Assembly (NCBI GenBank): GCA_046290225.1
Contig: JBKAGE010000075.1
Coordinates: forward strand, 96,001 to 160,000
Source: Bradymonadia bacterium
GTDB taxonomy: Bacteria; Myxococcota_A; Bradymonadia; UBA7976; UBA1532
Direction: 5' to 3'
DNA length: 64,000 nt
Shown: in pieces, positions 7,150-63,524 of the stretch
Numbering within the stretch: the stretch's first letter is position 1
Layout of the letters: each line of letters starts with the position of its first letter
The notes under the pieces: model-generated
What the model was told of the DNA's origin: nothing
The model's input: only the letters and a program-made list of their open reading frames with translations
Databases searched by the model: none
Position numbers and translations under genes: made by a program

Positions 7150-7186
7150 GCCACCTGACGCGACCCACGTCAGGTGGCTTTTTTTT
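7150..7186 (+). terminator. Second, orphan intrinsic terminator
   Basis: Perfect 11-bp stem GCCACCTGACG/CGTCAGGTGGC, 7-nt loop, then T8. Confidence 0.8.
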
Positions 7187-7216
7187 ATGGCTCCATCACA
7201 CATGTGAGGGGGGCAT

Positions 7217-7759
7217 CGAATTGGGGGTCGACGGAGGTGGTGGCTGGGCCTTTGTAGGCAGTTATCGCTTCGCTCTGACTGCGTAGGCGCCGGGCCTTCG
7301 GCAGCCCTGCGGGCCGCCTCGTCTGGCGCGTACACGTTCAGGCACCTGCTGACGCAGGCACCTTCCCGGGTAGGCAGGGTCGCTCAATGCTGACGCATTG
7401 ATTGCTCGCTCCCCTGCGTAAAGAGCTTCTTCTGTATCTCGTTGCTTAACCCCGCCGGGGTTCGGCCTACCGCGAACCTGAAAGCCTCTGAGTATGAACG
7501 CTAGGCGTAAGCCCCAACAGCGTTGGAAGCAGCACAAAGCCACACCAAAAGTGACTTTTTACGCAGGGGAGCGAGCGAATAAGGCGAAGCCTTGAGCGAC
7601 CCTGCCTACCCGGAGGCCTGCTCGCGCCAGCGAGCGTGCCGACGTGTACGCAGCTCCAAGGCGGGCCGCAGGCCGGCCGACAGAGCTGCCTACGCAGGCG
7701 GAGCGAAGCGACGACTGCCTACAAAGGCCCAGCCACCACCTCCATCACTCCCCAATTCG
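7217..7759. repeat. Palindromic non-coding element copy 1 (REPIN/MITE-like; ~200-bp imperfect inverted arms and a 135-bp core)
   Basis: Left GGAGGTGGTGGCTGGGCCTTTGTAGGCAGT (7233-) pairs with right ACTGCCTACAAAGGCCCAGCCACCACCTCC (-7743); inner 19-bp IR at 7404-7422 / 7558-7576; homologous to 22296-22813. Confidence 0.92.
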
Positions 7760-7782
7760 GCACTTGGCCAGTTCTCTCGTTC

Positions 7783-8517
7783 TCAGATGCGGGTGAGCAC
7801 CATCGTCCTCGGACCATCGAGGCTCTCCGGGCGGGGATCGCCTGGGCCACCGCTGGCGAAGTAGAGCTGATCACCTTCGATGTGCATGAGCGCGCCGGAG
7901 GCGATGCCCAGAGCAGGACCACAGACAGGGGTGATGTCTACGGGGAAGGGGGACTGTCCGCCGTGTACGGTGAGCTGGGCAGCGGAAATGGTGTCGAAAC
8001 CCTTGCGCACCACCATGAAGCCGTTGCCGAACAAGAAGCTCATCTTGCCCTGAGGGGTGTCCATGCTCCAGGCGCCAGCAAGGCCCGGTAGATCGGCGCT
8101 GGTGGCCTCGGGCTTGACGCCGGCGGGGCCCAAAGCGGTGAAGACAAAGGGATAGTCCGCAGGCCACCAGAGGGCCTCGTCTTCGCCAATGGAGACGCAG
8201 GCGACGACCCGGGCGTCCCCATGGGCATCGAGCACATCGCAGATGGCCTGCTTGCCTGCCTCGAGGTTGTGGATCGCGAAGAACAGGTTCATGGCTCCGG
8301 AGCCGAAATCAGAGCCATCCCCACTGCCAGCGGCGGATGTCTTCAGGGCTTGCTGAAGCTGGCCATAGAGCTGCTCGGCGAAGGCTTGATCGGCTTCGCT
8401 GTGCACCAGAATCTGCACACACAGATTCCCACTCTCACCGGTGGGGGCGGCCTGTGGTTCGCTCGGTGTCTCGGCAGGCTGTGCTTTGCCTTTGAGGAGG
8501 CGTGATAAAAAGCCCAT
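7783..8517 (-). CDS. Hypothetical protein
   Basis: 244-aa ORF with host-like codon usage, starts MGFLSRLLKG, upstream GGGAG RBS-like motif; no family recognised. Confidence 0.75.
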   Translation of the reverse strand: MGFLSRLLKGKAQPAETPSEPQAAPTGESGNLCVQILVHSEADQAFAEQLYGQLQQALKTSAAGSGDGSDFGSGAMNLFFAIHNLEAGKQAICDVLDAHGDARVVACVSIGEDEALWWPADYPFVFTALGPAGVKPEATSADLPGLAGAWSMDTPQGKMSFLFGNGFMVVRKGFDTISAAQLTVHGGQSPFPVDITPVCGPALGIASGALMHIEGDQLYFASGGPGDPRPESLDGPRTMVLTRI

Positions 8518-8606
8518 TGCTTCAGTTCTCCCAATTCATCCGGTGTGCTGAGAGGCAGATAGGGCCATGAGTCAGTGGTTGAATCAACCTGAACTGTCAG
8601 GGGTTC

Positions 8607-10112
8607 CTACTGCACATCCACGTCGAAGCGGTCCCCCACGACGCCGCGCACGCGCAGCCAACTCACCCCGGGCTCCAACATCGCCTCGAAGCTGCATTGC
8701 TCCTCTGTGGTGCACGTGGCCAGCCCAACCTGCTCCACCTCTCGATTGCGGATCAGCGTCGCCTGAATCAGGCCGTCTCTTGCGCTCACTGTGAAGGTCA
8801 GCATCGTGGGTGTGTCCACGAACACGGGGATGTCGTGTATCCCTTCTTCGCAGTCCCAGATCACTGCCTCTGTGAGCGTCGACGGGGGCTCCAGTCGAGG
8901 TGTCTCTGCGTTCTCCGGGCAGTTCGGAGAGATCGAACGTGTCACCGCCAGGGTGTATGGCCCCTCGAAGAGCGGCTTCGTCGTCGCCACCACCGTATAG
9001 AGGCCCCCCTCGAGGTTCAGGGCCAGCTCGGGTCCGCTGCCGAAATACATCTCGTCGTCACCGAGCGGCGTCATGGGATCTCCGTCGACGTCGAGCACCG
9101 TAAGCCGGAGCTCTGTCCCGGGCTCGGCGCTCAGGTCGAAGCGGTGAAAGCCTGCTCTGCGGGTGGCAAAGGTGAAGACGTCTGCCCGGGCATCAGGGAA
9201 GCCCTCGTTGAACTGTAGCTCTGACGGATCACAGTCGTTGAGGTCGAAGCTGCCCATGATGGGGGTGTCCACCAGCACGTCACCATCGATGCCGCAGTCG
9301 GTGCGCCTCAGCTCAGCCTGGTACGCGTAAGCGCCGATGCCGCCGGCGAGCATCACCACATAGGGCCCTGGCATCAGGTCGAGCACCAGATCGTCACCCG
9401 CTTCGGCGATCCGTTGTCCGTCGTTGGCGGAGAACACCTGCGCTGTGGCCGCGAAGGCCTCCGAGCGAGTCGTGAGGGCGAGGGTGGAGAACTCCGCGGC
9501 GTCGAAGCGATACAGATCGACCGGGCCGCCGAGGAAGCAGCTCTCCGCCGTCAACATGCCCGATTGGAACTGGTCCGCTTCAGAGAGCACGAGATCGGGG
9601 AAGGGGGCGGCGCAGGGCTGCTCGAGGGCGAACGTGCCGCTCAAGGTGGAGCCTCCGGGGGTGCCCACCTGCAAACGGAACATCCCCGGACGTACACGCT
9701 CGAGCACGTGCACCAGGGCACCATCGTCACCGGCGACGCCCTCAGCGAAGACGTTGTCTCCGTCCAGCGCGAGCACAAAGGGGGTGCCCGGCGGCAGCCC
9801 CTCGCCGCGGATCACCAGGGTGGCCTCGCCGGTGATCAAGAAGTCACGTTGGATGCAGTCACCCATCAACTCGAAGGGGGTCTCGAAGGTGCCTATCTCG
9901 GGGCGCTCACACTCCAAACCCATGTCGGGTGTCAGCATCATGTCGCTCGGTGTCGGATTCATGTCGCTCGGCAGCCGGGCGTCGAGGGGGCCGGCATCTG
10001 CCGGGCCTGTGTCTGCGCTGGGCGCCGTGGCCGAGGTGTTGCTGTCGTCGCCACAGGCTGCGAGCAAGGTGAGCAGACCGCTCAGGGCCAGGGTGGGTCG
10101 CACGTTCGTCAT
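8607..10112 (-). CDS. Lipoprotein with PPC-like (pre-peptidase C-terminal) beta domains
   Basis: Lipobox LLAAC, DMG-type linker, repeated D.Y/F.F...G.Y.V modules; start moved to the second ATG (MTNVRP). Confidence 0.8.
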   Translation of the reverse strand: MTNVRPTLALSGLLTLLAACGDDSNTSATAPSADTGPADAGPLDARLPSDMNPTPSDMMLTPDMGLECERPEIGTFETPFELMGDCIQRDFLITGEATLVIRGEGLPPGTPFVLALDGDNVFAEGVAGDDGALVHVLERVRPGMFRLQVGTPGGSTLSGTFALEQPCAAPFPDLVLSEADQFQSGMLTAESCFLGGPVDLYRFDAAEFSTLALTTRSEAFAATAQVFSANDGQRIAEAGDDLVLDLMPGPYVVMLAGGIGAYAYQAELRRTDCGIDGDVLVDTPIMGSFDLNDCDPSELQFNEGFPDARADVFTFATRRAGFHRFDLSAEPGTELRLTVLDVDGDPMTPLGDDEMYFGSGPELALNLEGGLYTVVATTKPLFEGPYTLAVTRSISPNCPENAETPRLEPPSTLTEAVIWDCEEGIHDIPVFVDTPTMLTFTVSARDGLIQATLIRNREVEQVGLATCTTEEQCSFEAMLEPGVSWLRVRGVVGDRFDVDVQ

Positions 10113-10226
10113 GCCTTTGTCTCCCGAGAAGCGCTCGCACATCGCAGAGCATTGCTGTCGAACTGGTCATACCACCACGGAGCACTCAGTGGCTCACGCT
10201 TCGGCCTGCCGACGCCGATGTAGAAC

Positions 10227-10244
10227 TTGGAACACAATTCGCAT
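10227..10244 (+). promoter_or_regulatory. Putative sigma54 -24/-12 promoter of the fliL operon
   Basis: TTGGAACACAATTCGCAT: GG-N10-GC spacing, about 85 nt upstream of the fliL ATG. Confidence 0.6.
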
Positions 10245-10269
10245 CAGAAGATGTCATCAGAAGATGTCA
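10242..10269. repeat. 13-bp tandem duplication CATCAGAAGATGT x2
   Basis: 10242-10254 and 10255-10267 are identical, followed by a partial CA. Confidence 0.85.
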
Positions 10270-10326
10270 CCAAAAGTCGGCATCGATTCAGGTGTCGAGA
10301 CTGAGCAGGACATCGTTGGAGAGAAC

Positions 10327-10869
10327 ATGGCCGCGGACGAGACAGTAGAGAACGAAGAGGAAGGTGGGGGCAAAGGCGGGGGCAGCAAGCTCCTCATGAT
10401 CATGCTCCTGGTGAATACCCTGGGCCTCGGTGGCCTCGCTGCGTACGTCGTATTGGGTGGGGGCGGTGACGCCAGCGCCGCCGCGGAGACCGGTGACGTC
10501 GCCGAAGAGGCCCTTGAGCCTCCTGAAGAGATGGAGGACATGCCTGCGGCTGCCCCCGGGGCCACAGGCTTCGAGTACACCGATATGAAGGAGCTCGTGA
10601 TCAACCTCAACGAGCCCAGTGGTGATCGGTACCTCAAGACCAAGATCAACCTGCAACTCGACAGCGAAGAGACCAAAGCCGAGATCGACCTGCGCAAGAG
10701 CCAGATCAGATATCAGCTCAACGTGCTGCTCTCGGGCCAGCGCGTCGTCGACGTGCAGGGGCCCGAGAACATGGAGTCTCTGCGCAAGGCCATGGTGCGC
10801 CGGATCAACGCCAGCCTGTCGAAGGGGCGGGTTACGGGCGTTTGGATGGTGGACTGGATCGTTCAGTGA
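10327..10869 (+). CDS. fliL: Flagellar basal body-associated protein FliL
   Basis: N-terminal TM helix; LVINLNEPSGDRYLK, IRYQL, G.ESLRK..VRRIN, WIVQ; GGAGAG RBS before ATG 10327. Confidence 0.92.
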   Translation: MAADETVENEEEGGGKGGGSKLLMIMLLVNTLGLGGLAAYVVLGGGGDASAAAETGDVAEEALEPPEEMEDMPAAAPGATGFEYTDMKELVINLNEPSGDRYLKTKINLQLDSEETKAEIDLRKSQIRYQLNVLLSGQRVVDVQGPENMESLRKAMVRRINASLSKGRVTGVWMVDWIVQ

Positions 10870-10923
10870 CAGGTTCGAGGCTGTCAGTGCCTCTGATTTC
10901 ACCCTACGAAGACGAGAGGGCTC

Positions 10924-12024
10924 ATGTCTGAGCAGCTGCTGTCGCAGAACGAGATCGATGCTCTGCTCTCGGCGGTCAACGACGGCCAGATCGAGGATGA
11001 TCTCGACGGCGGAGATATGGGGGCCATGGGTGGCGGAGGCATGGAAGCCTCTGCCCCGGCCCTCGACGTGGTCAAATACGACCTGCTCAGCCAGGACCGC
11101 ATCATCCGCGGTCGCATGCCCACCCTCGACATCATCAATGATCGCTTCGCCCGCCAGCTGCGGGTGACGCTGTCGAACATGCTGCGCAAGATGATTCAGG
11201 TCTCGGTGGAGTCCACCAGCCTGATGAAGTACGGCGAGTTCCTGAACTACCTGCCCATCCCCAGCTGCCTGAACGTGGTGAAGATGGCCCCGCTGCGAGG
11301 GGCCTGCATCCTCGCCATGGAGGCCAAGCTCGTCTTCGCCTTTTTGAACAACTTCTTCGGAGGCAGCACCAACGCCCAGGAGCGTGTGGAAGGCCGAGAC
11401 TTCACAGCGATCGAGCTGATGGTCATCCGCAAGGTGGTGAAGTTCCTGCTCTCCGATCTCGAGAAGGCATGGAACCCGGTGTTTCCCCTGAAGGGGGAGC
11501 ACATCCGTACCGAGATCAACCCTCAGTTCCTCGCTGTGGTGCCACCCACCGAAGTGGTGGTGCTCACCAGCTACGAGCTCGACCTCGAAGACCTGCGGGG
11601 CACCCTGCAGGTGGTGGTGCCCTACAGCACCGTGGAGCCGATCCGGCACAACTTGTCGAGTGGTGCACAGGGTGAGGCCGAGGAGGAGGACGACTCCTGG
11701 CGGGATCAGATCGAGTACAACCTCGACGAGGTGCCCGTCGATGGCCGCGTGGAGCTCGGCCAGACCCAGATCACCGTGAGCGAGCTGCTCGAACTCGACG
11801 TGGGCCATGTCATCCCTTTGACGCAAGACGTCAACGCACCGTTGACCATGAAGGTGGCGGGACACCGCAAGTTCGAGGTAGAGCCTATGGTGAAGGGTGG
11901 CCACCTCGCGGCCCGGATCGTACGCCCTGTCTTGCCTCGGCCCGATCCAAAGGCCGAGCTAGCCCTGGAACACGACCCCAGCTTGAATGCTGGCACACCC
12001 CCTGCAATTCCACCCCCCCAGTGA
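10924..12024 (+). CDS. fliM: Flagellar motor switch protein FliM
   Basis: LSQNEIDALL CheY-binding motif, RMPTLDIINDRFAR, EGRDFTAIE, EINPQF, C-terminal SpoA domain. Confidence 0.97.
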   Translation: MSEQLLSQNEIDALLSAVNDGQIEDDLDGGDMGAMGGGGMEASAPALDVVKYDLLSQDRIIRGRMPTLDIINDRFARQLRVTLSNMLRKMIQVSVESTSLMKYGEFLNYLPIPSCLNVVKMAPLRGACILAMEAKLVFAFLNNFFGGSTNAQERVEGRDFTAIELMVIRKVVKFLLSDLEKAWNPVFPLKGEHIRTEINPQFLAVVPPTEVVVLTSYELDLEDLRGTLQVVVPYSTVEPIRHNLSSGAQGEAEEEDDSWRDQIEYNLDEVPVDGRVELGQTQITVSELLELDVGHVIPLTQDVNAPLTMKVAGHRKFEVEPMVKGGHLAARIVRPVLPRPDPKAELALEHDPSLNAGTPPAIPPPQ

Positions 12025-12040
12025 AGGAGGGATGCCTCAG

Positions 12041-12319
12041 ATGAGCCAGGAGCAGGTACAAGACATCGACTTTCTCTTCGATGTCGAACTCGAGGTGACG
12101 GTGGTGCTCGGCACCACTCGCATGCTCATCAGCGATCTGCTCAAGCTGGCAAACGGCTCGGTGGTGGAGCTCGACAAGCTCGCCGGCGAGTCTCTCGACA
12201 TTCTCGTGAACGACAAGGTCATCGCCCGAGGCGAGGCCGTCACCGTCAACGAGAAGTTCGGGGTCAGGCTCACTGAGATCATCTCCCCCATGGAGCGTAT
12301 CCGACAGCTCAAGGGCTGA
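12041..12319 (+). CDS. fliN: Flagellar motor switch protein FliN
   Basis: GSVVELDKLAGE, IARGEAVTVNEKFGVRLTEI; RBS AAGGAGG 10 nt before ATG 12041 (alternative start 12032). Confidence 0.96.
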   Translation: MSQEQVQDIDFLFDVELEVTVVLGTTRMLISDLLKLANGSVVELDKLAGESLDILVNDKVIARGEAVTVNEKFGVRLTEIISPMERIRQLKG

Positions 12320-12425
12320 TGCCCGAGCCCGGCGCGCTCGCAACCTGAACAACTGACGAATCGCCGAGGCGCCCCGGAACAGGGGAGCGCTCACCGGCGA
12401 GGTGCGACCTGCGGAGGTGAGGGTG

Positions 12426-14009
12426 ATGTCTGTGCGGCACAATGTGAGCGTAGCCCTGGGGGCGATGATGATGCTGCTCGCCGGTCTGGCGAGCGCCGAA
12501 GGCACCCTGCCCATGATCGACGGCGTCGATCATGTGGTGCACGCCGAGGGACGGACCTTCCGCTTCACGGCGGACCATCCCCTCACCGCAGAAGGGGCCG
12601 AGGCCTTCACCGATGGGGTGGTCCTCGGTCTGCGCTTGACCTCGGCGAAGGTCCGCAAGAGCTGGCCCGAGTTCGAAGACGCCCGCATCAACCGCACCCT
12701 GATGTTCCAGTCTCATCAGAAGGCCGACTCGGTGGTGCTCCGCGTGCGCTTCACCGACATCAAGGGGCTGCCCAAGTCCTTCGCGAAGAAGGTGCGCTTC
12801 GAGGTGCGCAAGGGGGCGGTGCTGGCCCACGTGCCCCCGCTGCCCGGTGAAGATCTCGCCGGCCTGGGGGTCTCGTCTGCCCGTGCCGTAGCCCACGTGA
12901 TGCCCGCCCCGGAGGTGGAGCCCGCGCTGCTGGTGAAAGCCCCTGAGCCCGCTGCGCCGGCGGTGGCGGTGAAAGCCGTCGATCCGGGGCCTGATCCGCT
13001 GCGGACCGAGAGTCGACCCACGATCAAGCCTGCTGTCGCCCCCACCGCTGGGGCCACGTTCCTCGCCCAGATCGACGCCCCGGAGCCGAAGGCGCCTGAG
13101 GCTGCCGACCCCGCACCGGTGGCTGAGGATGTACCTGCGAAGCCTGTGGTCGAGGTGCCCTCTGCGGAGACTCTTGCTGCAGAAGCATTGGAGACGCCCG
13201 CCGCTGCACCTGAGCTGGAGACCGCTGCGCCGGTGCGCCTCGAAGAGGCCCTCATCACCGAGCCGGAGACCCCTGCGAAGCTGCACGCCAACAACATCGG
13301 GGCCCAAGGGGAAGACCTGCCCTTCGACTGGTCCCTCATCGGGGTGCTCGCCTTTGCCCTCTTCGGCCTGTGGGGGGTGAAGAAGCTGCGCCGGCGTCAG
13401 CCCGGAGCCATCGATGGCCGCCTCATCAAGCCGCTGAGCAGCCATCTGCTCGGCCCCCGCCACGGGCTGCTCCTCGTGGACGTCGCCGGGGAGCACGTGT
13501 TGCTGGGCACCAGCGACAAGGGGGTGCAGATGCTCACCAAGATCAACCCCAACACCGACTCGGTGCGGGCCCTCGAGGCTGACTCCATCATGGTGGACCA
13601 CCCCACGCCCAAGGCCATCACTGACAAGCGCTCTGGCAAGGGGACCGCCAGCAAAGCCCGGGCGGCCTTCAGCCAGGTGCTCAACAGCGTCACCGGCCGG
13701 GTGCCCATGCTCGAAGACGACGAAGTGCCTGTGACCGAGCGCCCCGAGCGCCGGCCTCGGGCCACGGCGCCTCAGGTGTCGAAGGTGACCTCCACTGGGG
13801 GCAACACGACCCGCAGCGAGGACGATGCCCTGCTGGCCATGGCCGCCCAGGTTCAAGATGGTCTGACCAGCTCACAGAGCCGCAACACCGTCACCCGGGG
13901 GCCTCACACCCGCCCCATCGATCCCGTGGAGCTCCCCGAGGCCAACGGTGAAGAAGAGGGCGTCGCCGCCGATCTGCTCACCCGTATCCGCCAGTTGCAG
14001 GGCGCCTGA
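12426..14009 (+). CDS. fliO: Extended FliO/FliZ-family export protein
   Basis: Between fliN and fliP; TM helix followed by FliO-like core LGPRHGLLLVDVAGEHVLLGTSDKGVQML; extra N-terminal signal peptide, periplasmic domain and Pro/Ala linker; start uncertain (12402-12426). Confidence 0.8.
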   Translation: MSVRHNVSVALGAMMMLLAGLASAEGTLPMIDGVDHVVHAEGRTFRFTADHPLTAEGAEAFTDGVVLGLRLTSAKVRKSWPEFEDARINRTLMFQSHQKADSVVLRVRFTDIKGLPKSFAKKVRFEVRKGAVLAHVPPLPGEDLAGLGVSSARAVAHVMPAPEVEPALLVKAPEPAAPAVAVKAVDPGPDPLRTESRPTIKPAVAPTAGATFLAQIDAPEPKAPEAADPAPVAEDVPAKPVVEVPSAETLAAEALETPAAAPELETAAPVRLEEALITEPETPAKLHANNIGAQGEDLPFDWSLIGVLAFALFGLWGVKKLRRRQPGAIDGRLIKPLSSHLLGPRHGLLLVDVAGEHVLLGTSDKGVQMLTKINPNTDSVRALEADSIMVDHPTPKAITDKRSGKGTASKARAAFSQVLNSVTGRVPMLEDDEVPVTERPERRPRATAPQVSKVTSTGGNTTRSEDDALLAMAAQVQDGLTSSQSRNTVTRGPHTRPIDPVELPEANGEEEGVAADLLTRIRQLQGA

Positions 14010-14024
14010 GCCTCGGAGCCATCC

Positions 14025-14831
14025 ATGTACGCCCTCTCCCGGCGGCCGGCCATCTGGCTCGGCGCTCTGATTCTGGTCATGGTCGGCGTGAGCTTCGCCT
14101 TCGGGCAGGCCCCGGCGAACCCACCCCTCGAAGCCCCGGCGGGCACCATGAACCCCATGAGCTTCCCCGAGTTCGAACTCAAGATGGGCGGCGGCGAAGG
14201 GGACTGGGTGAGCACCCTGCGCATGTTGGGGCTCATCACCATACTCACCCTCGCCCCGGGCATCCTGCTCACCATGACCTGCTTTACCCGCATCGTCATC
14301 GTGATGAGCTTCATCCGCCAGGCCCTTGGTACTCAGCAGACTCCGCCGAACCAGGTGCTCATGGGGCTCTCGCTCTTCATGACCGTCTTCATCATGAGTC
14401 CGGTGATCTCCAAGGTGCATCAAGACGCCCTGGTGCCGTACATGGCGGAGACCATCTCTCAAGGTGAGGCCCTCGACCGGGCCGTGGCGCCTCTCAAGAG
14501 CTTCATGATGAAGGAGACCCGAGAGAAGGATCTCGCCCTCTTCGTCCAGGCCAGCGGGGCTCAATACCCACAGACCGTCAACGACGTGGGCATGATGCAG
14601 CTCGTGCCCGCCTTCGTGATCAGCGAGCTCAAGACCGCGTTCCAGATGGGCTTCATGATCTTCGTGCCGTTTCTGGTGCTCGACATGGTGGTGGCCTCGG
14701 TGCTCATGGCCATGGGCATGATGATGCTGCCCCCGGTGCTCATCTCGCTGCCCTTCAAGCTCATGCTCTTCGTGCTCGTCGACGGCTGGAATCTGCTCGC
14801 CGGCAGCCTCATCCGCAGCTTCACGGGATAA
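14025..14831 (+). CDS. fliP: Flagellar export gate protein FliP
   Basis: TCFTRIVIV, ALGTQQTPPNQVL, PAFVISELKTAFQ, MGMMMLPP, LPFKLMLFVLVDGW. Confidence 0.98.
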   Translation: MYALSRRPAIWLGALILVMVGVSFAFGQAPANPPLEAPAGTMNPMSFPEFELKMGGGEGDWVSTLRMLGLITILTLAPGILLTMTCFTRIVIVMSFIRQALGTQQTPPNQVLMGLSLFMTVFIMSPVISKVHQDALVPYMAETISQGEALDRAVAPLKSFMMKETREKDLALFVQASGAQYPQTVNDVGMMQLVPAFVISELKTAFQMGFMIFVPFLVLDMVVASVLMAMGMMMLPPVLISLPFKLMLFVLVDGWNLLAGSLIRSFTG

Positions 14832-14834
14832 ACC

Positions 14835-15104: not shown

Positions 15105-15108
15105 GCTG

Positions 15109-15921
15109 TTGAGCACGCTGGAGGCGATTACCCCCTTTGCCACGGCGTTGGGGCTGGCCACCACCCGCATCGGGGCCTTGATGATGGCCTCGCCGATCTT
15201 TCAGTCCGCCAGCATCCCCAGCAGGCTCAAGGGGGCCCTCACCATGGTGCTGGCCATCCTGGTGGTGCTCAAGTCCGGGCCGCTGTATCCGGTGACCCCC
15301 AGCGGCGTGCTCGTCGATTCGATGGACGGCGCGTTCCTGCTGTCGGCGGTGGCTCGTGAGCTGATGGCTGGCGCCCTCATGGGCCTCGCGGCGACGGTGA
15401 CCTTCTCGGCGATCCAGATGACCGGTGAGACCATGGGTGTGCAGATGGGCTTCTCGGTGGCCAACGTCATCGATCCCACCACGCGCCAGCAGAACGGTCT
15501 CATCACTCAGCTGCTCAACCTCATGGCGGTGCTGATCTTCCTCGCCGTCGATGGTCACCTGTTCCTGCTCAAGGCCTTGTTCGACAGCTTCGACGTGGTG
15601 CCCCTCGCTCAGGTTGCGCCCGATCTCGGCGCCCTCATGGAGATCTTCCTCACCATGGGCACACGGCTGTTCTCGCTGGGTTTGAACATGGCCCTGCCGG
15701 TGATCTGCGTGGTGCTCTTCGTGAATGTGGGCTTGGCCCTCTCGATGCGGGCGGTGCCCCAGATCAACATCTTCGCCGTGGGCTTCATCTTGTCCATCGG
15801 CCTGGGCCTCGTGGTCCTGATGCAAGCCCTGCCCTCTGAAGGCGGGGCCATCGCCCACGTCATCGAAGAGGCCGTGTCATCGGCCGCTCAGGTGGTGCCG
15901 CTCCTCGGAGAGCAGCGGTGA
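15109..15921 (+). CDS. fliR: Flagellar export gate protein FliR
   Basis: Polytopic membrane protein; QMGFSVANVIDP, DGHLFLL, RAVPQINIFAVGF; TTG start inferred. Confidence 0.94.
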   Translation: MSTLEAITPFATALGLATTRIGALMMASPIFQSASIPSRLKGALTMVLAILVVLKSGPLYPVTPSGVLVDSMDGAFLLSAVARELMAGALMGLAATVTFSAIQMTGETMGVQMGFSVANVIDPTTRQQNGLITQLLNLMAVLIFLAVDGHLFLLKALFDSFDVVPLAQVAPDLGALMEIFLTMGTRLFSLGLNMALPVICVVLFVNVGLALSMRAVPQINIFAVGFILSIGLGLVVLMQALPSEGGAIAHVIEEAVSSAAQVVPLLGEQR

Positions 15922-16988
15922 GCGAAGGCGGCGGGGGAGAACGCACAGAAAAGGCGACGCCCAAGCGTCGGGAGGACGCACGAAAAAAAGGTGATGTGGC
16001 CCGATCACGCGATGTGGCCACGGTGCTCATCGTCTTCGCGGGCTTCACCTACCTGACCCTCTTCGGAGGCCGACTGCGAGAAGGGGTCTCGTCGCTGATT
16101 CGAAGGTGTTTTGGCGAGCTCGAGGGCCCATTGAAGTCCTCGGATGCATTCATCGAGTTCACTGGGGAGATCGTGGCCCTCATGGCGGGCTGGCTGGCGC
16201 CGCTCTTCGGCGGGGTGGTTTTGCTGGCGATCCTGGGCAACGTGGCCCAGGTGGGCTGGCTGATCACCTTCGAGCCCCTCAAGCCCGATCTCACCAAGCT
16301 CAACCCGCTGCCGAACCTGAAGAACATTTTCTTCAGCAAGCGCACCCTCGGGAACCTCGTGACCAACGTGGCCAAGGTGACGGTGGTGGCCTCGGTGGTG
16401 GCCCTCACCATCCGCTCCGACGCTGAGAGCATCGCGGTGCTCTCGCAGATGCCCCTCATGGCGGGCATGGAGACGATCTTGTCCACGGTGCTGCAGCTCA
16501 TGCTCAACACGGGCCTGGCCCTCATCGCCATCGCTGGGGCTGACTTCGCGTGGAACAAGTACCTCTACGAAGAGAAGCTCAAGATGAGCAAACACGACGT
16601 GAAGGAGGAGGCGAAGGAGCAGGAAGGCAACCCGCTCATGAAGGGCGCCCGCATGCGCCGGGCCCGGGAGCTTTCCAACAACCGCATGATGCAGGCGGTG
16701 CCCGAGGCCGACGTCGTGCTCAACAACCCCACCCACCTGTCAATCGCCCTGCGCTACCGCCAAGGGGTTGACGCTGCACCGGTGGTGGTGGCGAAGGGGG
16801 CCGACCTCGTGGCGATGCGGATTCGCCGCATTGCCGCAGCGAACGACGTGCCCATGCTCGAGGACAAACCCCTGGCACGGTTGTTGTTTAAGAGATGTGA
16901 GGTCGGTCAGGCGGTGCCCGAAGAGGTGTACCGGGCTGTGGCCGAAGTTCTCGCGTACGTGTACCAGCTGAAAGGCAAGACCGGCTGA
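15918..16988 (+). CDS. flhB: Flagellar export switch protein FlhB
   Basis: RTEKATPKR, EGNP, intact NPTH autocleavage motif, VAKGAD, AVAEVLAYVY. Confidence 0.98.
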   Translation: MSEGGGGERTEKATPKRREDARKKGDVARSRDVATVLIVFAGFTYLTLFGGRLREGVSSLIRRCFGELEGPLKSSDAFIEFTGEIVALMAGWLAPLFGGVVLLAILGNVAQVGWLITFEPLKPDLTKLNPLPNLKNIFFSKRTLGNLVTNVAKVTVVASVVALTIRSDAESIAVLSQMPLMAGMETILSTVLQLMLNTGLALIAIAGADFAWNKYLYEEKLKMSKHDVKEEAKEQEGNPLMKGARMRRARELSNNRMMQAVPEADVVLNNPTHLSIALRYRQGVDAAPVVVAKGADLVAMRIRRIAAANDVPMLEDKPLARLLFKRCEVGQAVPEEVYRAVAEVLAYVYQLKGKTG

Positions 16989-19138
16989 TGGCAGCAGTGG
17001 AAAGCACGGGCATTCGCCAACAACTCTCCGGCATGTGGTTTGCCGGCGGGGTGGTGGGATTGCTCTTGCTGATGGTGGTCGAGCTGCCCACCTTCCTGCT
17101 CGACGCACTGCTCGCCCTCAACCTCACCATCGCCCTCGTAGTGCTCGTGGTCGCCATCTACCTGAAGCGGCCCCTCGACTTCTCTGGCTTCCCCGCTGTG
17201 TTGTTGCTCACCACCTTGTTCAGGCTGTGTTTGAACGTGGCGTCGACCCGCTTGATTCTGCTCAAGGGCAAGGATCAGGGAGAGGCCGCAGGGCAGATCA
17301 TCCAGGCCTTCGGAGAAAAGGTTGTGGGTGGTAACTATGTGGTGGGCATCATCATCTTCATCGTGCTGATCATCATCAACTTCATGGTCATCACCAAAGG
17401 CTCTGGCCGCATCGCCGAGGTGGGGGCCCGCTTCACCCTCGACGCCATGCCCGGCAAGCAGATGGCCATCGACGCCGATCTCAACGCCGGCCTCATCACC
17501 GAAGACGAAGCCAAGCAGCGGCGCCGCGACGTGGAGCGCGAGGCGGACTTCTACGGGGCGATGGACGGTGCCTCGAAGTTCGTGCGCGGTGACACCATCG
17601 CCGGCATCTTGATCACCTTCATCAACATCATCGGCGGCTTCATCGTGGGCACTGCCCAGCTCGGCATGGACGCCGGCGACGCCGCCGAGACCTTCACCAT
17701 GCTCACCGTGGGTGACGGCCTCGTGAGCCAGATCCCCTCGCTGGTCATCTCCACCGCCGCGGGCATCATCGTCACCCGCGCCGCAGGCACCGCCGATCTG
17801 GGCTCGGAGCTCGGCAAGCAGCTCACGGGAAACGACAAGGTGCTCAAGCTGGTGGCGGGCATCTTGTTGCTCATGATCTTTGCGGGTGGCATGCCCTTCT
17901 TCACCTTCGGTGCCATCGCTGCGGGCCTCTTCTGGCTCGCGACCCGCATGAACAAGCCCACTGAAGAAGAGGCTGCTGGCTCTACTGGTGGCGGTGAAGG
18001 CGCTGCTGCCCTGGGTGGCACCACTGAAGAGGCGCCCCAGGTGAGCGACGAGGAGCGCATCGCTGGCATGCTGCCCATCGACCAGCTCGAGCTGCACGTG
18101 GGCTATGGCCTCATCGGCATCGTCGATCCCGCTCAGGGCGGCGACATGGTGGAGCGCATCCGGCGGATGCGGGAGCAGTTCGCCCTGGAGATGGGTGTGA
18201 TTCTGCCTCCGGTGCACATCCGCGACGACCTGCAGCTCGCCCCCGACGAGTACCGCCTGCTCATCAAGGGGGTCTCCGCCGCCGAGGGTGAGCTGATGCC
18301 CAGCAAGATGATGATGCTGGTGCCTGATCCTGCAGAGGCCCCTCAAATCGAAGGGGTGCCCACCATGGAGCCGGCCTTCGGCATGGCCGCTCGCTGGATC
18401 GATCCCCAAGATCAGGAAGAGGCCGAGGGCATGGGCTACACGGTGGTGGAAGGCACCACCGTCGTGGCCACCCACATCGGCGAGGTGCTGCGCAAGAACG
18501 CCCACGAGCTCGTGGGCCGCACCGAGGCACAGCGCCTGGTGGACATCCTCTCGGAGCGGCACCCCAAGCTGGTTGAGGCCCTGATCCCCAACAAGGTGGA
18601 CCTGGGCGATCTGGTGAAGGTCATCAAGAACCTGCTCATCGAGCAGGTGAGCGTGCGAGATCTGCGCACGATCCTCGAGGCCATGGCGGACTTCCCCAAC
18701 ATCAAGAGCCCCGAGGTCCTCGCAGAGTGTGTGCGCCAGCGCCTGAACAAGGTGCTCTCCGCCACGTTGCGGGGCCCCGACGGTGTGGTGCACGTGCTCC
18801 AGATGGACGGCGCCATGGAGGGCCACCTGCGGGGGGCCCTGAAGCAAATCGACAACGATCTGCACTTTGTGATCGACCCGGCGATTCATCAGGCGGTGGT
18901 GGAGCAGGCCGCCGAGGGCGCCGGGCACATGCAGGCCTGCGACTGGATGCCGGTGTTGATCACCGCCCCAGAGCTGCGGCGGGCCATGAGCAACCTGCTC
19001 ACCCCCTACATCGACGGGCTGAGGGTGATCTCCACTCGGGAGATCGCGCCGGGGGTCGAGGTGAACAGTGAAGGCATCATCGGTGGCGGCATCCCCCTGC
19101 CGCCCATGGCAGAGGGCATGCCCCAAGGGCTGAGGTAA
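16988..19138 (+). CDS. flhA: Flagellar export protein FlhA
   Basis: FHIPEP signature RIAEVGARFTLDAMPGKQMAIDADL, FYGAMDGASKFVRGD. Confidence 0.98.
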   Translation: MAAVESTGIRQQLSGMWFAGGVVGLLLLMVVELPTFLLDALLALNLTIALVVLVVAIYLKRPLDFSGFPAVLLLTTLFRLCLNVASTRLILLKGKDQGEAAGQIIQAFGEKVVGGNYVVGIIIFIVLIIINFMVITKGSGRIAEVGARFTLDAMPGKQMAIDADLNAGLITEDEAKQRRRDVEREADFYGAMDGASKFVRGDTIAGILITFINIIGGFIVGTAQLGMDAGDAAETFTMLTVGDGLVSQIPSLVISTAAGIIVTRAAGTADLGSELGKQLTGNDKVLKLVAGILLLMIFAGGMPFFTFGAIAAGLFWLATRMNKPTEEEAAGSTGGGEGAAALGGTTEEAPQVSDEERIAGMLPIDQLELHVGYGLIGIVDPAQGGDMVERIRRMREQFALEMGVILPPVHIRDDLQLAPDEYRLLIKGVSAAEGELMPSKMMMLVPDPAEAPQIEGVPTMEPAFGMAARWIDPQDQEEAEGMGYTVVEGTTVVATHIGEVLRKNAHELVGRTEAQRLVDILSERHPKLVEALIPNKVDLGDLVKVIKNLLIEQVSVRDLRTILEAMADFPNIKSPEVLAECVRQRLNKVLSATLRGPDGVVHVLQMDGAMEGHLRGALKQIDNDLHFVIDPAIHQAVVEQAAEGAGHMQACDWMPVLITAPELRRAMSNLLTPYIDGLRVISTREIAPGVEVNSEGIIGGGIPLPPMAEGMPQGLR

Positions 19139-19142
19139 CGAG

Positions 19143-20528
19143 ATGGAGTCGACCCACAACTTCCGTGGCCGCACCATGAGCGAGGCGGTGGCCCGCCTCA
19201 AGGCGTCTCTGGGCCCCGAGGCCGTGATCATCCAGACCCGACGCGGTCGAGACACGGATGGCACCTTCGTGGAGATCACCGCGAGAGGCCCCCAGGAGCC
19301 GGCGATGGCCGGCCCGGGCTCCGGCGCTGCGGCCTATCGGCGCATGGAGAAGGTCACCGCCCCCGCGGCGACCCCTCGTCGCCAGCCTGGCCGGGAGGCG
19401 GCCCGCACGTCGGACCAGAGCATCGGCCTGGCCAAGGCCCGGGAGATGGCCGCCCGCATCGCCCCCGAGGTGAGCGCCCGCAACCCCGAGCTCGCTCGAC
19501 GCCTCGAGGCCCTCAAGGGGGGCGCGCCCACCGGCGTGCCCGGCCCGCTCAGCCGAGCTGCAGGCATCACTGAAGCCGCAGCGGCGCCTCAGCCCACAGC
19601 CCAGCACGCACCCTCTCGTAATGTCGCCGCCGTGAGCAGCGGAGAGACCGATCGCCTCAAGGCCCTGGTCGATGTCTTCGCCAGCAAAGTAGAGGCCTTC
19701 GAGGCCCGCCTGGCGGAGCAGGAGGGGGGTACGGTGAAGCGTCTGGCCCACATGCTCAACGAGGTGGGCATCAGCCGGGCCCACGCCGAGGCCCTCGCCC
19801 GGCGAGCCAGCGAGCGTTGCCCGGGCTGCACGCCCGAAGACGGCGCACTGCTCGCAGCCCTTGGCCGCGAGATGGCCGACAGCATGCCCGTGAGCGGCGA
19901 TCTGCTGCCGGCACCGGGTGCCCGCCGCGTGCTGGCCTTCGTGGGCCCCACGGGGGTGGGCAAGACCACCACCATCGCCAAGATCGCCGCTCGGGCGGCT
20001 TTGATGGAGGGCCGCACCGTGGCCCTCATCACCGTGGACACGTTCCGCATGGCCGCTGTGGAGCAGCTCGCCAGCTACGCACGGATTCTCGAGTGCCCAC
20101 TGCGCATTGCCCGCGACGCCGGAGAGCTGAAGGCCGCCCTCGAGGCATTCTCTGATCGCGATCTGGTCCTCGTGGACACCACGGGGCGCAGCCCCAGGGA
20201 TACCGAGCACGTGAGCGCCCTCGGCGGCTTCTTCCCCGAAGGGTGGGGGGGCTCGCTGGTGCTCACGGTGTCGAGCAGTACGCGAGAGCGCGACATGTTC
20301 GCCGCCGTCGACGCCTATGGCCAGCTGGGGGTGGAGACTCTGTGCGTCACCAAGCTCGACGAGACCGACGCCCCCGGCGCGGTCTACAGCGCCGTGCGCC
20401 GCGCCGGCCGCCCTCTGGCGTGGGTCACCACCGGCCAGCGCGTGCCCGAAGATCTCGAGCAGGCCGAGGCGGCTCCGCTCTCTGCCCGCATCGTCGCGCG
20501 GGCGTCCACGTTGAGGCAGGCAGCATGA
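19143..20528 (+). CDS. flhF: SRP-type GTPase FlhF
   Basis: N-terminal F...M..A.....LGPEAVII; GPTGVGKTTT, DTFR, DTTGRS, TKLDE, GQRVPEDL. Confidence 0.95.
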   Translation: MESTHNFRGRTMSEAVARLKASLGPEAVIIQTRRGRDTDGTFVEITARGPQEPAMAGPGSGAAAYRRMEKVTAPAATPRRQPGREAARTSDQSIGLAKAREMAARIAPEVSARNPELARRLEALKGGAPTGVPGPLSRAAGITEAAAAPQPTAQHAPSRNVAAVSSGETDRLKALVDVFASKVEAFEARLAEQEGGTVKRLAHMLNEVGISRAHAEALARRASERCPGCTPEDGALLAALGREMADSMPVSGDLLPAPGARRVLAFVGPTGVGKTTTIAKIAARAALMEGRTVALITVDTFRMAAVEQLASYARILECPLRIARDAGELKAALEAFSDRDLVLVDTTGRSPRDTEHVSALGGFFPEGWGGSLVLTVSSSTRERDMFAAVDAYGQLGVETLCVTKLDETDAPGAVYSAVRRAGRPLAWVTTGQRVPEDLEQAEAAPLSARIVARASTLRQAA

Positions 20529-20598
20529 AGGCGTTACCAGGACTTCGTCATACGGCTTCGTCTGTACGTTCAGTTCACGTTGACTGCCAGAGGGACCG

Positions 20599-21516
20599 AT
20601 GAACAACCATAAGGCAAACGTGATCCCCTTATGGGGCCACACAACAGATCAGGCATCGACGCTCCGACGGCTCGCCGGCGGGGCCTCGGCGCCTGTGGGA
20701 GACAGACGCAGGATGCGCATTCTCTCGGTCACCAGCGGAAAGGGTGGGGTGGGCAAGACCAGCCTCACCTGCAACCTCGCGACCCGTCTCGGTCAGATGG
20801 GCCAGAAGGTGCTCGTCGTCGACGCCGACATGGGCCTCGCCAACGTCGACATCGTCATGGGCATCAAGCCCAAGGCCACCTTGGAGCAGCTCTTCAGCGA
20901 TGAAGAGCGGCGCCTCGAAGACATCCTCGTTGACGGGCCGCCGAACGTCACGGTGCTGCCTGCAGGCTCCGGCGTGCGAGATCTCGTACATCTGAGCGAA
21001 GGGCAGGTGCTGAAGTTCCTCGAGGCCTTCGACACCCTCGAGGAGACCTTCGACTTCACCCTCATCGACACCGGGGCGGGCATCGGCAGCAACGTGCTGT
21101 ACTTCAACGCCGCAGCTCAGGACGTCCTCGTGGTGGCCACCCCGGAGCCCACCTCGATGACCGACGCCTACGCCACGATGAAGGTGCTCCACCAGACCCA
21201 CGGCCTGAAGCGTTTCACCTTGTTGGTGAACGCCGTGGAAGATCGCAAGGAGGCCCTCGACGTCTACCGCCGCCTCACCGGTGTGGCCGACAAGTACCTC
21301 GACATCTCCATCGACTATCTGGGCCACGTGCTCCGCGACAACCGCGTGGGCCGGGCCATCATGGAGCGAGGTCTCTTCATCGATCGCTACCCCGACAGCG
21401 AGTCCGCCCGGTGCATCGCCGAGATCGCCGAGCGTCTGATGGAAGACACCGAGGCCCGGCCGCCCACGGGGAACCTGCAGTTCTTCTGGCGACGCCTCTT
21501 GTCTGCGGGAGCGTGA
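20599..21516 (+). CDS. flhG: MinD-like ATPase FlhG/FleN
   Basis: SGKGGVGKT, DADMGLANVD, IDTGAG, TPEPTSMTDAYA; between flhF and fliA. Confidence 0.95.
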   Translation: MNNHKANVIPLWGHTTDQASTLRRLAGGASAPVGDRRRMRILSVTSGKGGVGKTSLTCNLATRLGQMGQKVLVVDADMGLANVDIVMGIKPKATLEQLFSDEERRLEDILVDGPPNVTVLPAGSGVRDLVHLSEGQVLKFLEAFDTLEETFDFTLIDTGAGIGSNVLYFNAAAQDVLVVATPEPTSMTDAYATMKVLHQTHGLKRFTLLVNAVEDRKEALDVYRRLTGVADKYLDISIDYLGHVLRDNRVGRAIMERGLFIDRYPDSESARCIAEIAERLMEDTEARPPTGNLQFFWRRLLSAGA

Positions 21517-21523
21517 GTCAGCC

Positions 21524-22285
21524 GTGAACCCTGCCCTGCGCCGATACGGCTCCAAGGCCTACCAGAAAGGTCGCCAGGAGAGCCGCCGGGATGCCCTGCT
21601 GAGGGCCCACGCGCCCTTGGTCCGCAAGGTGGCGTGGCGCATGATCCACCGCGTGCCCAGCTCGGTGGACATCGACGATCTGATCTCGGTGGGTACTCTG
21701 GGCCTCCTGCAGGCCATCGATCACTTCGACGAGTCGAAGGGCACCCGCTTCGAGTCCTTTGCGGAGTTCCGCATCAAGGGGGCGATGCTCGACGAGCTGC
21801 GATCTTGTGATCACATGTCTCGTACGGCCCGCGGTCGCATCAACCAGATCGAGAAGGCCCGAGCAAAGCTCGAGGCAGACCTGGGGCGCGCGCCAAAGGT
21901 GACGGAGATCGCCGAGGTGGTGGAGCTGCCCGCGGACGAGGTGGCCCGCCTGCTGGCAGAAGACGAGAACACCACCTTCATGACGCTCGACGACATGACG
22001 CCGGTGGCTGCAGAGCAGACCGAGTCGCTCTCGGAGCTGGCGGCCCAGGGTGGCAGCCACGGAGATCCCTTCGGCACCCACCTGGCGCGGGAGCTCAAGG
22101 CGGCCCTGGCTGCGGAGATCGGCAAGCTGCCGGATCGTCTGCAGCTGGTCCTGTCGCTGTACTACGAGCAGAGCCTCAATCAGAAAGAGATCGCCGCAGT
22201 GCTCGACCTGACGGAGTCGCGCATCAGCCAGCTGCACAGCGAGGCGGTGAAGATTCTCCGGCGTCGGATGCAGCGCCTCGTTTGA
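21524..22285 (+). CDS. fliA: RNA polymerase sigma-28 factor FliA
   Basis: DDLISVGTLGL, RIKGAMLDELR, LSLYYE..L..KEIA.VL.LTESRISQLH. Confidence 0.96.
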   Translation: MNPALRRYGSKAYQKGRQESRRDALLRAHAPLVRKVAWRMIHRVPSSVDIDDLISVGTLGLLQAIDHFDESKGTRFESFAEFRIKGAMLDELRSCDHMSRTARGRINQIEKARAKLEADLGRAPKVTEIAEVVELPADEVARLLAEDENTTFMTLDDMTPVAAEQTESLSELAAQGGSHGDPFGTHLARELKAALAAEIGKLPDRLQLVLSLYYEQSLNQKEIAAVLDLTESRISQLHSEAVKILRRRMQRLV

Positions 22286-22295
22286 CCTTCAGAGT

Positions 22296-22813
22296 GTGTC
22301 TGTTGTGGCTGGGCCTTGGTAGGCAGTCATCGCTTCGCTCCGCCTGCGTAGGCGCCGGGCCTTCGGCAGTCCTTCGGACCGCCTCGTCTGGCGCGTACAC
22401 GTTCAGGCATCCGCTTGCGCGGACACCCTTCCGGGTAGGCAGGGTCGCTCAATGCTGACGCATTGATTGCTCGCTCCCCTGCGTAAAAAGTCAGTTTTGG
22501 TGTGGCTCTGCACTGATTCCGGTGCTGCTGGGGCTTTCGCCGAGCCTTGGGGCTCAGAGGCTTGCAGGTTCGCGGTAGGTCGAATCCCGGCGGGGTTCAG
22601 CAACGAGATACAGAAGAAGCTCTTTACGCAGGGGAGCGAGCGAACAGGGCGAAGCCTTGAGCGACCCTGCCTACCCGGAGACCTGCTCGCGCCAGCGAGT
22701 ACGTCGACGTGTACGCGCCAGACGAGGCGGTCCGAAGGACTGCCGAAGGCCCGGCGCCTACGCAGGCGGAGCGCAGCGACGACTGCCTACCAAGGCCCAG
22801 CCACAACAGACGC
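22296..22813. repeat. Palindromic non-coding element copy 2 (core inverted relative to copy 1)
   Basis: 22298-22402 pairs with the right end (to 22811) over 105 bp with 2 mismatches; inner 19-bp IR at 22469-22487 / 22623-22641; lies between convergent fliA and fliJ. Confidence 0.95.
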
Positions 22814-29580: not shown

Positions 29581-29584
29581 GGGA

Positions 29585-63506: not shown

Positions 63507-63524
63507 AGCGGACGACCGCGCTGC

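What the first reader, a model, noticed from the sequence alone, without database searches (positions are those of the whole stretch)
7404..22641. Invertible 135-bp core inside a dispersed palindromic element
Seen: copy 1 (7217-7759) and copy 2 (22296-22813) have asymmetric arm markers in the SAME orientation. The left arm carries TCAATGCTGACGCATTGA and the right arm carries GGCGAAGCCTTGAGCG and CCTGCTCGCGCCAGCGAG. The cores (7423-7557 and 22488-22622, both exactly 135 bp) are reverse complements of each other, with no gaps and about 20 mismatches by hand count (~85%). The flip is bounded exactly by a perfect 19-bp IR, GCTCGCTCCCCTGCGTAAA (7404-7422/7558-7576; 22469-22487/22623-22641). Inference: the core has been inverted by recombination within that IR, through a site-specific invertase, a HUH/RAYT-type enzyme or hairpin template switching. 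That would make this a multi-copy non-coding element with a flippable cassette. No recombinase is encoded in the window.
Basis: partly seen in the sequence, partly recalled or inferred. Interest (0 to 1): 0.85.

Follow-up and report, generated by a model that had tools for sequence, protein, structure and literature searches.

The report
Shuffling hairpin repeat, not a switch
The two copies belong to a family of about 45 non-coding, hairpin-armed DNA repeats in this bacterium whose parts swap between copies and whose middle only occasionally ends up reversed, so it looks like an elaborate relative of known bacterial palindromic repeats rather than a dedicated on/off DNA switch.

Summary
The element has 45 core copies in this genome and none in the relatives searched. 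Each arm is four GTA(G/C)-headed hairpins (M1-M4) of REP-like build. The 19-bp IR is only M4's 3' stem plus GTAAA. M2/M3 stay linked: 26 normal, 6 reversed including copy 2. So reversals are real but a minority, and the crossover cannot be placed in the 19-bp IR. A second arm family with a homologous core shows 0 of 24 reversed. Core direction ignores neighbouring genes, and no recombinase is tied to the element. Best reading: a BIME-1/REPIN-like non-autonomous element. Copies trade blocks by gene conversion, arm tips are mirrored by fold-back copying, and reversal is a by-product. A Y1-HUH mobiliser is inferred from relatives but absent from this assembly; one copy encloses a four-helix-bundle pseudogene. 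Earlier scan notes saw similar palindromes in this genome.

The parts
7217..7253 (+). Copy 1 outer tip: G/T-rich, degenerate between loci, mirrored within the locus
7254..7282 (+). Copy 1 upstream arm module M1 (GTAG-headed hairpin)
7283..7329 (+). Copy 1 M2, allele a (GTAG at the foot of a bulged hairpin)
7330..7369 (+). Copy 1 M3, allele a (GTAC-headed hairpin)
7370..7417 (+).
7404..7422 (+). 19-bp inner IR, left (M4 3' stem plus GTAAA)
7423..7557 (+). Copy 1 core, 135 bp, majority orientation; non-coding, no supported consensus RNA fold
7558..7576 (-). 19-bp inner IR, right
7563..7722 (-). Copy 1 downstream arm: M4 allele B1 (7563-7609), M3 b (7610-7649), M2 b (7650-7693), M1 (7694-7722)
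7723..7759 (-). Copy 1 right outer tip, mirror of the left tip
22296..22487 (+). Copy 2 left arm: tip, M1 (22319), M2 a (22348), M3 a (22395), M4 A (22435), GTAAA (22483); inserted just after the fliA stop
22488..22622 (-). Copy 2 core, 135 bp, reversed relative to M3 (minority class)
22623..22813 (-). Copy 2 right arm: IR, M4 B1 (to 22674), M3 b (to 22714), M2 a identical to the left M2 (to 22761), M1 (to 22790), tip; abuts the convergent fliJ-like gene
63508..63912 (+). Sister family F2 copy: arms of tandem CTGTAGCGGACG-headed hairpins around a homologous core (about 63635-63772, + strand)

Best explanation
A non-autonomous, REP-built composite element (BIME-1/REPIN-like): two inverted arms of four GTA(G/C)-footed ssDNA hairpins around a conserved, fixed-length, asymmetric linker. 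SHOWN: the anatomy; insertion into a tight gene junction; preference for convergent gene ends; block-wise mosaicism of cores and modules; mirroring of arm tips; about one copy in five reversed. INFERRED: (i) copies spread through a Y1-HUH (RAYT/TnpA-REP-like) enzyme acting on folded single strands, now lost or unassembled; (ii) dispersed copies exchange inner blocks by gene conversion, which randomises M4; (iii) fold-back copying from one arm to the other mirrors the tips and sometimes whole modules; (iv) an occasional crossover or strand switch in either ~20-bp perfect tract between the arms, or a donor block pasted in backwards, reverses the core. The reversal has no switch function. My odds: about 0.85 that reversal is a non-dedicated by-product, about 0.6 that the mobiliser is Y1-HUH.
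For: GTAG directly at the foot of bulged stems in M2 and M4, the REP build described in PMC3333891 and PMC8266576 (passages). Mini-hairpin loops are G-N-A or G-N-N-A on one strand (374 matches vs 26 on the other), including GTCA, GCCA and GTTA, which fits DNA mini-hairpins (PMC13037366, start of abstract) rather than RNA GNRA loops. 20 of 42 F1 and 17 of 28 F2 copies lie between convergent genes against 17% background. fliA is followed within 5-23 bp by a convergent fliJ-like ORF in 7 of 13 relatives, and none of the 13 has a long IR there. Linkage inside the core decays with distance (r2 0.19 to 0.03). Two loci share an identical 137-bp core and near-identical upstream M2-M4 but have different tips and a different downstream M4. 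Rare variants are mirrored within a locus at the tips (28 vs 4.1 expected, maximum 9 in 300 permutations) but not in M1-M4. Y1 genes of class relatives sit inside long hairpin IR arms in 9 of 21 loci vs 0 of 60 control genes, and several Y1 loci carry GTAG-footed bulged hairpins. Template switching is known to homogenise IR arms and invert spacers (PMC8604942, passages).
Against: No Y1/RAYT gene in this genome by Pfam, NCBIfam or a custom profile; the one weak tblastn hit lies antisense to a host gene. No Y1 gene with these exact arms or core was found anywhere. The relatives' Y1 proteins score as IS200/IS605-family, below the REP_Tyr_transpos cut-off, and the GTAG-footed hairpin excess near them is modest (33 vs 17.6 shuffled). 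M3 is headed by GTAC, which E. coli TnpA-REP would not accept (PMC8266576). The only gene found enclosed by these arms is a four-helix-bundle pseudogene. Published template-switch inversions in the paper read are 2-5 bp, not 135 bp. The excess of unlike M4 alleles at the two arms (4 of 35 alike vs 11.6 expected, p=0.003) is not directly explained; I infer loss of over-perfect palindromes. No read-level data.
Confidence: 0.55

Rival explanations
1. Gene-less miniature of a small four-helix-bundle (TIGR02436 / PF05635, Avd-like) gene cassette that spreads by an unknown route, possibly with a reverse transcriptase in trans; reversal still incidental.
For: Complete F1 arms enclose a frameshifted four-helix-bundle gene at G000:C77:107005-107859, and the arms of a third family enclose one with an open frame at C72:82266-83361; these are both PF05635 hits in the genome. 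Such genes are IR-flanked in 10 of 21 relative loci. The genome holds two retron-type RT genes with an M1 remnant between them.
Against: Four-helix-bundle arms in relatives are mostly short tandem repeats with no excess of GTAG-footed hairpins (21 vs 17.7 shuffled). The core has no match in the C77 cassette or near the RT genes. Loops look DNA-type and the core has no supported RNA fold. The protein has no catalytic role known to me (recalled).
Confidence: 0.2
2. Dedicated site-specific inversion of the core at the 19-bp IR by an invertase acting in trans.
For: The IR is the best-kept part next to the core (median perfect inner IR 19 bp). Six copies are reversed, in probably 3-5 independent events (tree). 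4 of the 5 reversed copies with unlike M4 fit a single crossover in the IR.
Against: The same 4 fit a single crossover at the M3/M4 junction. M4 is unlinked from M3 and from the core while M2/M3 stay linked. One copy has M2 normal and M3 reversed. F2 shows 0 of 24 reversed (p=0.03 against F1). No promoter-like site, no orientation link to genes. The nearest recombinase is housekeeping xerC-hslVU 2.7 kb from one copy; the rest are over 58 kb away or on contigs without copies; no IS110.
Confidence: 0.07
3. Classical DDE-mobilised MITE or foldback element with long terminal inverted repeats.
For: Long terminal IRs, no coding capacity, many copies, empty site in relatives.
Against: No target duplication seen at the 27 F2 end pairs listed (by eye). 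F1 tips are the least conserved part between copies, the opposite of DDE transposase-bound ends. Conservation lies in internal hairpins.
Confidence: 0.08
4. The reversed copy is an assembly chimera.
For: Draft assembly of 83 contigs; some copies break contigs. Reads bridging the locus were not available.
Against: Contig overlaps point to k=99, whereas the perfect tract shared by copies 1 and 2 around the IR is 57 bp. Six reversed copies lie on six contigs, and copy 2 shares a 96% identical core with another reversed copy.
Confidence: 0.04

Closest known systems
E. coli BIME-1 (REP - long conserved L linker - iREP; PMC3333891, passages)
   Same: Inverted GTAG-footed imperfect hairpins around a long conserved linker, single dispersed copies, extragenic; chimeric forms occur.
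   Different: Four hairpin modules per arm (about 190 bp) instead of one REP; 135-bp linker shared by two unrelated arm families; no cognate TnpA-REP in the assembly; one module headed GTAC.
REPINs / REPtrons and TIRtrons with RAYT or TIRYT Y1 transposases (PMC3733652, abstract, first part and passages; PMC6006769 and PMC8266576, passages)
   Same: Species-restricted palindromic doublets, several families per genome, enriched downstream of genes; composite TIRs made of degenerate GTAG units joined to other stem-loops are described.
   Different: Larger modular arms with allele shuffling; no flanked Y1 gene found here; a four-helix-bundle pseudogene inside one copy.
Template-switch homogenisation and spacer inversion at inverted repeats (PMC8604942, passages; PMC5941160, abstract)
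   Same: Arm-to-arm copying plus occasional spacer inversion without a dedicated enzyme.
   Different: Spacers inverted in that paper are 2-5 bp; here 135 bp, with exchange between loci as well.
Site-specific invertible segments (hin, fim, shufflons; recalled, no call)
   Same: Asymmetric segment between short perfect IRs, found in both orientations.
   Different: No linked recombinase, no promoter or coding content, crossover not localised, orientation strongly biased, sister family not reversed.
IR-flanked four-helix-bundle (TIGR02436 / PF05635) cassettes
   Same: One F1 copy and one F3 copy enclose such a gene; IR flanks are common around these genes in relatives.
   Different: Typical flanks are short tandem repeats, not GTAG hairpin modules.

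Membership tests
REP/BIME/REPIN | GTAG tetranucleotide at the 5' foot of an imperfect hairpin | tested here: met
   M2 and M4 clearly, M1 weakly; M3 has GTAC
REP/BIME/REPIN | REP and iREP in inverted orientation around a linker | tested here: met
   35 complete copies, linker 134-137 bp
REP/BIME/REPIN | Multi-copy, extragenic, enriched downstream of or between convergent genes | tested here: met
   20 of 42 convergent vs 17% background; genes from my own crude caller
REP/BIME/REPIN | Narrow taxonomic range | tested here: met
   Core not found in 40 relatives; 1 weak hit inside a coding region among 112 class genomes; arm patterns at control level in 400 phylum genomes
REP/BIME/REPIN | Cognate TnpA-REP/RAYT gene flanked by the same repeats | tested here: not met
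   None in G000; draft of 83 contigs, smallest 1091 bp, so a short arm-flanked gene could be missing
REP/BIME/REPIN | Binding and CT cleavage by TnpA-REP | not testable with these tools
   needs biochemistry
BIME-1 | IHF site in the linker | not tested
   no motif scan run
Site-specific invertible segment | Fixed crossover site in the IR, outside markers moving as one block | tested here: not met
   M4 unlinked from M3 and core; one mixed copy; two equal candidate tracts
Site-specific invertible segment | Associated tyrosine, serine or IS110 recombinase | tested here: not met
Site-specific invertible segment | Promoter or coding content whose direction matters | tested here: not met
   0 sigma-70-like sites at copy 1 (other promoter types not covered); orientation vs genes 10:9; 1-2 bp indels in cores
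Site-specific invertible segment | Both orientations at one locus in a population | tested here: inconclusive
MITE (DDE) | Target-site duplication and conserved termini | tested here: inconclusive
   none seen at 27 F2 end pairs by eye; F1 tips degenerate; no close empty site
Four-helix-bundle cassette miniature | Same arms enclosing a four-helix-bundle gene | tested here: met
   one F1 copy, gene frameshifted
Four-helix-bundle cassette miniature | Short tandem-repeat arms as around such genes in relatives | tested here: not met
   F1 arms are GTAG hairpin modules
Retron-derived repeat | Core homologous to sequence beside a retron RT | tested here: not met
   no core-profile hit near C79:178-181 kb
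Known structured RNA | Rfam match or covarying consensus fold | tested here: not met
   0 Rfam hits in the window; 3 pairs, no covariation on the forward strand of 32 cores

The most novel reading that the evidence does not exclude
A new class of modular ssDNA mobile elements in which a conserved ~135-bp core is the cis-acting unit (origin or protein-loading site, with conserved blocks about 37 bp apart), arms are interchangeable arrays of GTAG hairpin modules shuffled enzymatically faster than point mutation, the same arms can carry small cargo genes (four-helix-bundle) or drag a flank along, and the mobiliser is not a recognisable Y1 transposase.
Probability: 0.15. Interest if true: 0.7.

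Novelty: new variant of a known kind. Interest (0 to 1): 0.4.

Why it matters
How REP/BIME elements spread and diversify in vivo is still open. This genome holds about 45 + 29 copies with many polymorphic markers, so exchange between copies, fold-back copying and inversion can be read from one genome. One core with two unrelated arm sets (and a natural chimera) suggests arms and core are separable parts. It is also a caution for scans of invertible DNA: two orientations across dispersed copies of a palindromic repeat do not imply a switch.

Tried and rejected
Y1/RAYT gene in the genome: none; the weak C35 hit is antisense to a host gene. Core in other genomes: pattern scan of genome contigs gave 10 hits, all without arms, best profile E 0.005, read as chance; covariance-free model over 112 class genomes gave 1 weak hit in coding DNA. 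F1 arm pattern in metagenomes: 0. F2 tandem head in metagenomes: 12 hits, none with a core or facing arms; L159 has similar hairpin modules as a one-way array. Viral contigs were not scanned. Sequencing runs: no RNA holder listed; two marine runs with small share hold a near strain in short contigs, none bridging copy 1, so orientation mixing is untested. RNA structure in the core: not supported. Retron origin: no core match near the two RT genes. XerC near one copy: housekeeping operon. Mixed orientation suggested by contigs C30 and C53 both ending in the same core end: better read as a collapsed two-copy segment C69. Homology of the F3 core to the F1/F2 core: none. Whether module exchange happens exactly at module junctions was not tested, because hairpin selection confounds it. 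Literature: no paper on this element in 9 searches; subscription journals are mostly not covered and no supplements were read (the REPtron lists of PMC3733652 and PMC6006769 may hold similar arms).
Full report
OBSERVATION. The cores at 7423-7557 and 22488-22622 are 135 bp each and are gap-free reverse complements with 20 mismatches; the four 19-bp IR copies are identical. Arm markers face the same way in both copies. The window is a flagellar region: copy 1 lies between flgE and a convergent unknown gene, copy 2 between fliA and a convergent fliJ-like gene. No recombinase was seen in the ORFs scanned and Rfam gave no match.

FAMILY AND ANATOMY. BLAST finds 45 core copies in the genome; cores average 84% identity and are 134-137 bp. 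Read from outside in, each arm is a degenerate G/T-rich tip, then four hairpin modules headed GTAG, GTAG, GTAC, GTAG (M1-M4), then GTAAA. In M2 and M4 the GTAG sits at the foot of a bulged stem, the REP build of PMC3333891 and PMC8266576 (passages). The 19-bp IR is the 3' stem of M4 plus GTAAA. Mini-hairpin loops are G-N-A or G-N-N-A on the strand opposite the heads (374 matches vs 26), with free middle bases. That fits DNA mini-hairpins (PMC13037366, start of abstract), so I infer selection on folded single-stranded DNA. The core shows no supported RNA fold and no sigma-70-like promoter. Its conserved blocks are about 37 bp apart (by eye); its role is not shown.

TEST OF THE FLIP. Of 45 copies, 35 had both arms complete and parseable; 7 were truncated, interrupted or at contig ends, and 3 had an aberrant upstream arm. 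A core flipping at the 19-bp IR would randomise M2-M4 together and keep them linked to each other, so that model fails as the general explanation. Counting M2/M3 together: 26 normal, 6 reversed, 1 mixed, 2 uninformative. M2 and M3 reverse together more than by chance (p=0.014), so real block reversals exist. Copy 2 is one of them, judged by M3 alone, since its two M2 are identical. The tree suggests about 3-5 independent events but is weakly resolved and the cores recombine. The breakpoint cannot be placed. The reversed haplotype follows from the common aaA/bbB type by a crossover in the inner IR, or from the equally common aaB/bbA type by a crossover at the M3/M4 junction, whose perfect tract is as long (median 22 vs 19 bp).

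SISTER FAMILY AS CONTROL. A profile built from F1 cores alone (chimera left out) finds 25 further hits at E<1, all in a second family F2, best E 7e-7. F2 arms are tandem hairpins headed CTGTAGCGGACG, drawn in varying number and order from a shared pool; one copy is in this window at about 63508-63912. Of 29 F2 loci, 24 have the two distinct innermost modules and all 24 have the same polarity; 2 have the downstream module copied to both sides, 3 are atypical, including an F2/F1 chimera at C82. So the same core is not reversed where the inner IR is short (p=0.03 against F1). Outer F2 modules are pooled, so reversals further out would be invisible.

WHAT SHUFFLES THE PARTS. Linkage between core variants decays with distance (r2 0.19 at 1-5 bp, 0.03 beyond 80 bp), so copies recombine even in the module-free core. 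Loci C72:93150 and C80:94640 share an identical core and near-identical upstream M2-M4 but differ at the tips and in the downstream M3 and M4: exchange outpaces point mutation. Within a locus, rare variants are mirrored at the tips (28 vs 4.1 expected, maximum 9 in 300 permutations) but not inside M1-M4; whole-module identity is in excess mainly for M1 (12 of 35 vs 14% between loci). An outward gradient is what fold-back copying would leave (inference). Template switching is known to homogenise arms and invert spacers, though the spacers in the paper read are 2-5 bp (PMC8604942, passages; PMC5941160, abstract). The two M4 of a locus are alike less often than chance (4 of 35 vs 11.6, p=0.003). 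Collapsed derivatives lacking the core exist, so loss of over-perfect palindromes is a plausible but untested cause. M4 state is only weakly tied to core lineage (p=0.04).

CONTEXT AND MOBILITY. With a crude codon-based gene caller, 20 of 42 F1 and 17 of 28 F2 copies lie between convergent genes against 17% background; among co-directional neighbours the core points either way (10:9). In 7 of 13 relatives a convergent fliJ-like ORF follows fliA within 5-23 bp; three more look similar but my script picked the wrong frame, three have other neighbours, and none has a long IR there. Copy 2 is therefore an insertion. The family was not found in 40 relatives, 112 class genomes (one weak coding hit), 400 phylum genomes or the public collections.

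WHO MOVES IT. No Y1/RAYT gene was found by Pfam, NCBIfam or a profile from relatives. The assembly is 99.4% complete in 83 contigs, smallest 1091 bp, and repeat arms break contigs, so a short arm-flanked gene could be missing. In the class, 9 of 21 full-length Y1 loci (of 30 fetched; 9 at contig edges dropped) have long hairpin IR arms vs 0 of 60 control genes, and several Y1 loci carry GTAG-footed bulged hairpins. Those proteins score as IS200/IS605-family rather than RAYT, and none carries this core. TnpA-REP cleaves at CT and recombines BIME pieces in vitro (PMC3333891, passages), which would suit F2's CT-GTAG junctions. Against this, the only cargo inside F1 arms is a frameshifted four-helix-bundle gene at C77, and a third family (F3) encloses one with an open frame at C72. 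Such genes are IR-flanked in 10 of 21 relative loci (of 29; 8 edge loci dropped), mostly by short tandem repeats. Tyrosine and serine recombinases of the genome are not tied to copies; the nearest is xerC-hslVU, and there is no IS110.

ARTEFACT CHECK. Contig overlaps point to k=99, longer than the 57-bp perfect tract shared by the two copies around the IR, and six reversed copies lie on six contigs. Two public runs hold a near strain only in short contigs; they show pieces of the element, one with the IR and M4 joined to a different outer sequence, but none bridges copy 1. Whether any locus is polymorphic is open.

VERDICT. It works like a BIME-1/REPIN: inverted GTAG-footed hairpins around a conserved linker, dispersed at gene ends. 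It is not filed as a member, because the cognate transposase was tested for and not found. The reversal is real in a minority of copies but is best read as a by-product of exchange between long inverted arms and between copies. What is unusual is the four-module arms, the core shared by two arm families, and the missing mobiliser. I found no description of it in nine paper searches; supplements were not read. Papers seen: PMC3733652 (abstract, first part, passages), PMC6006769 (passages), PMC3333891, PMC8266576 and PMC8604942 (passages), PMC5941160 (abstract), PMC13037366 (listing only). Statements on hin/fim/shufflons and on Avd are recalled. Novelty: new variant of a known kind; interest 0.4.

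Noticed in passing
window 63508-63912: Copy of sister family F2 (29 loci with a core): tandem CTGTAGCGGACG-headed hairpin modules in shuffled order around a core homologous to F1; outer ends are sharp and often follow TGA.
   Followed up: yes
G000:C82:48350-48800 (L039): Natural chimera: F2 arm upstream, divergent core, F1 arm downstream.
   Followed up: partly
G000:C77:107005-107859 (L091) and C72:82266-83361 (L022): F1 arms around a frameshifted four-helix-bundle gene; F3 arms around one with an open frame. These are both PF05635 hits of the genome.
   Followed up: partly
G000, e.g. C34:227513-227869, C78:312912-313270: Third family F3 (about 46 complete copies): arms with tandem hexamer repeats, a fixed-length asymmetric core unrelated to F1, and outer ends resembling the F2 core ends; 30 of 166 contig ends fall in it.
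   Followed up: partly
   Followed up: no
G000:C34:360955-361135 and C78:372750-372900: A small TA-flanked MITE-like insertion sits inside one F1 core and one F2 core; its terminal motif has 67 matches in the genome.
   Followed up: partly
G000:C69 with C30, C53, C64, C22: A 1.9-kb segment starting in the inner IR of an F1 copy (core, downstream arm, next gene) has two incoming and two outgoing contig links; the two upstream arms are near-identical. Possible duplication of an element with its flank, or strain mixture.
   Followed up: partly
G000:C79:178397-181400 (L092): Two convergent retron-type reverse transcriptase genes with a collapsed F1 M1 remnant between them.
   Followed up: partly
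G000:C50:55530-57157 (L083): An ORF that looks like a DDE transposase (by eye, not scanned) is inserted inside an F3 core.
   Followed up: no
L063-L081 (class relatives): Y1 transposase genes flanked by long modular hairpin IRs; several share a motif upstream of the start codon (ACGCAAC ... CCGAAAAC), perhaps a promoter.
   Followed up: partly
L159 (metagenome contig) 2500-2700: One-way tandem array of F2-like GTAGCGGACG hairpin modules, without core or facing arm.
   Followed up: no
window 7149-7189 and 6965-6998: Terminator-like hairpins between flgE and copy 1.
   Followed up: no
window 34955-47040: Two very large PKD-repeat proteins (1301 and 2670 aa) next to a ketosynthase gene cluster at 24379-30853.
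   Followed up: no
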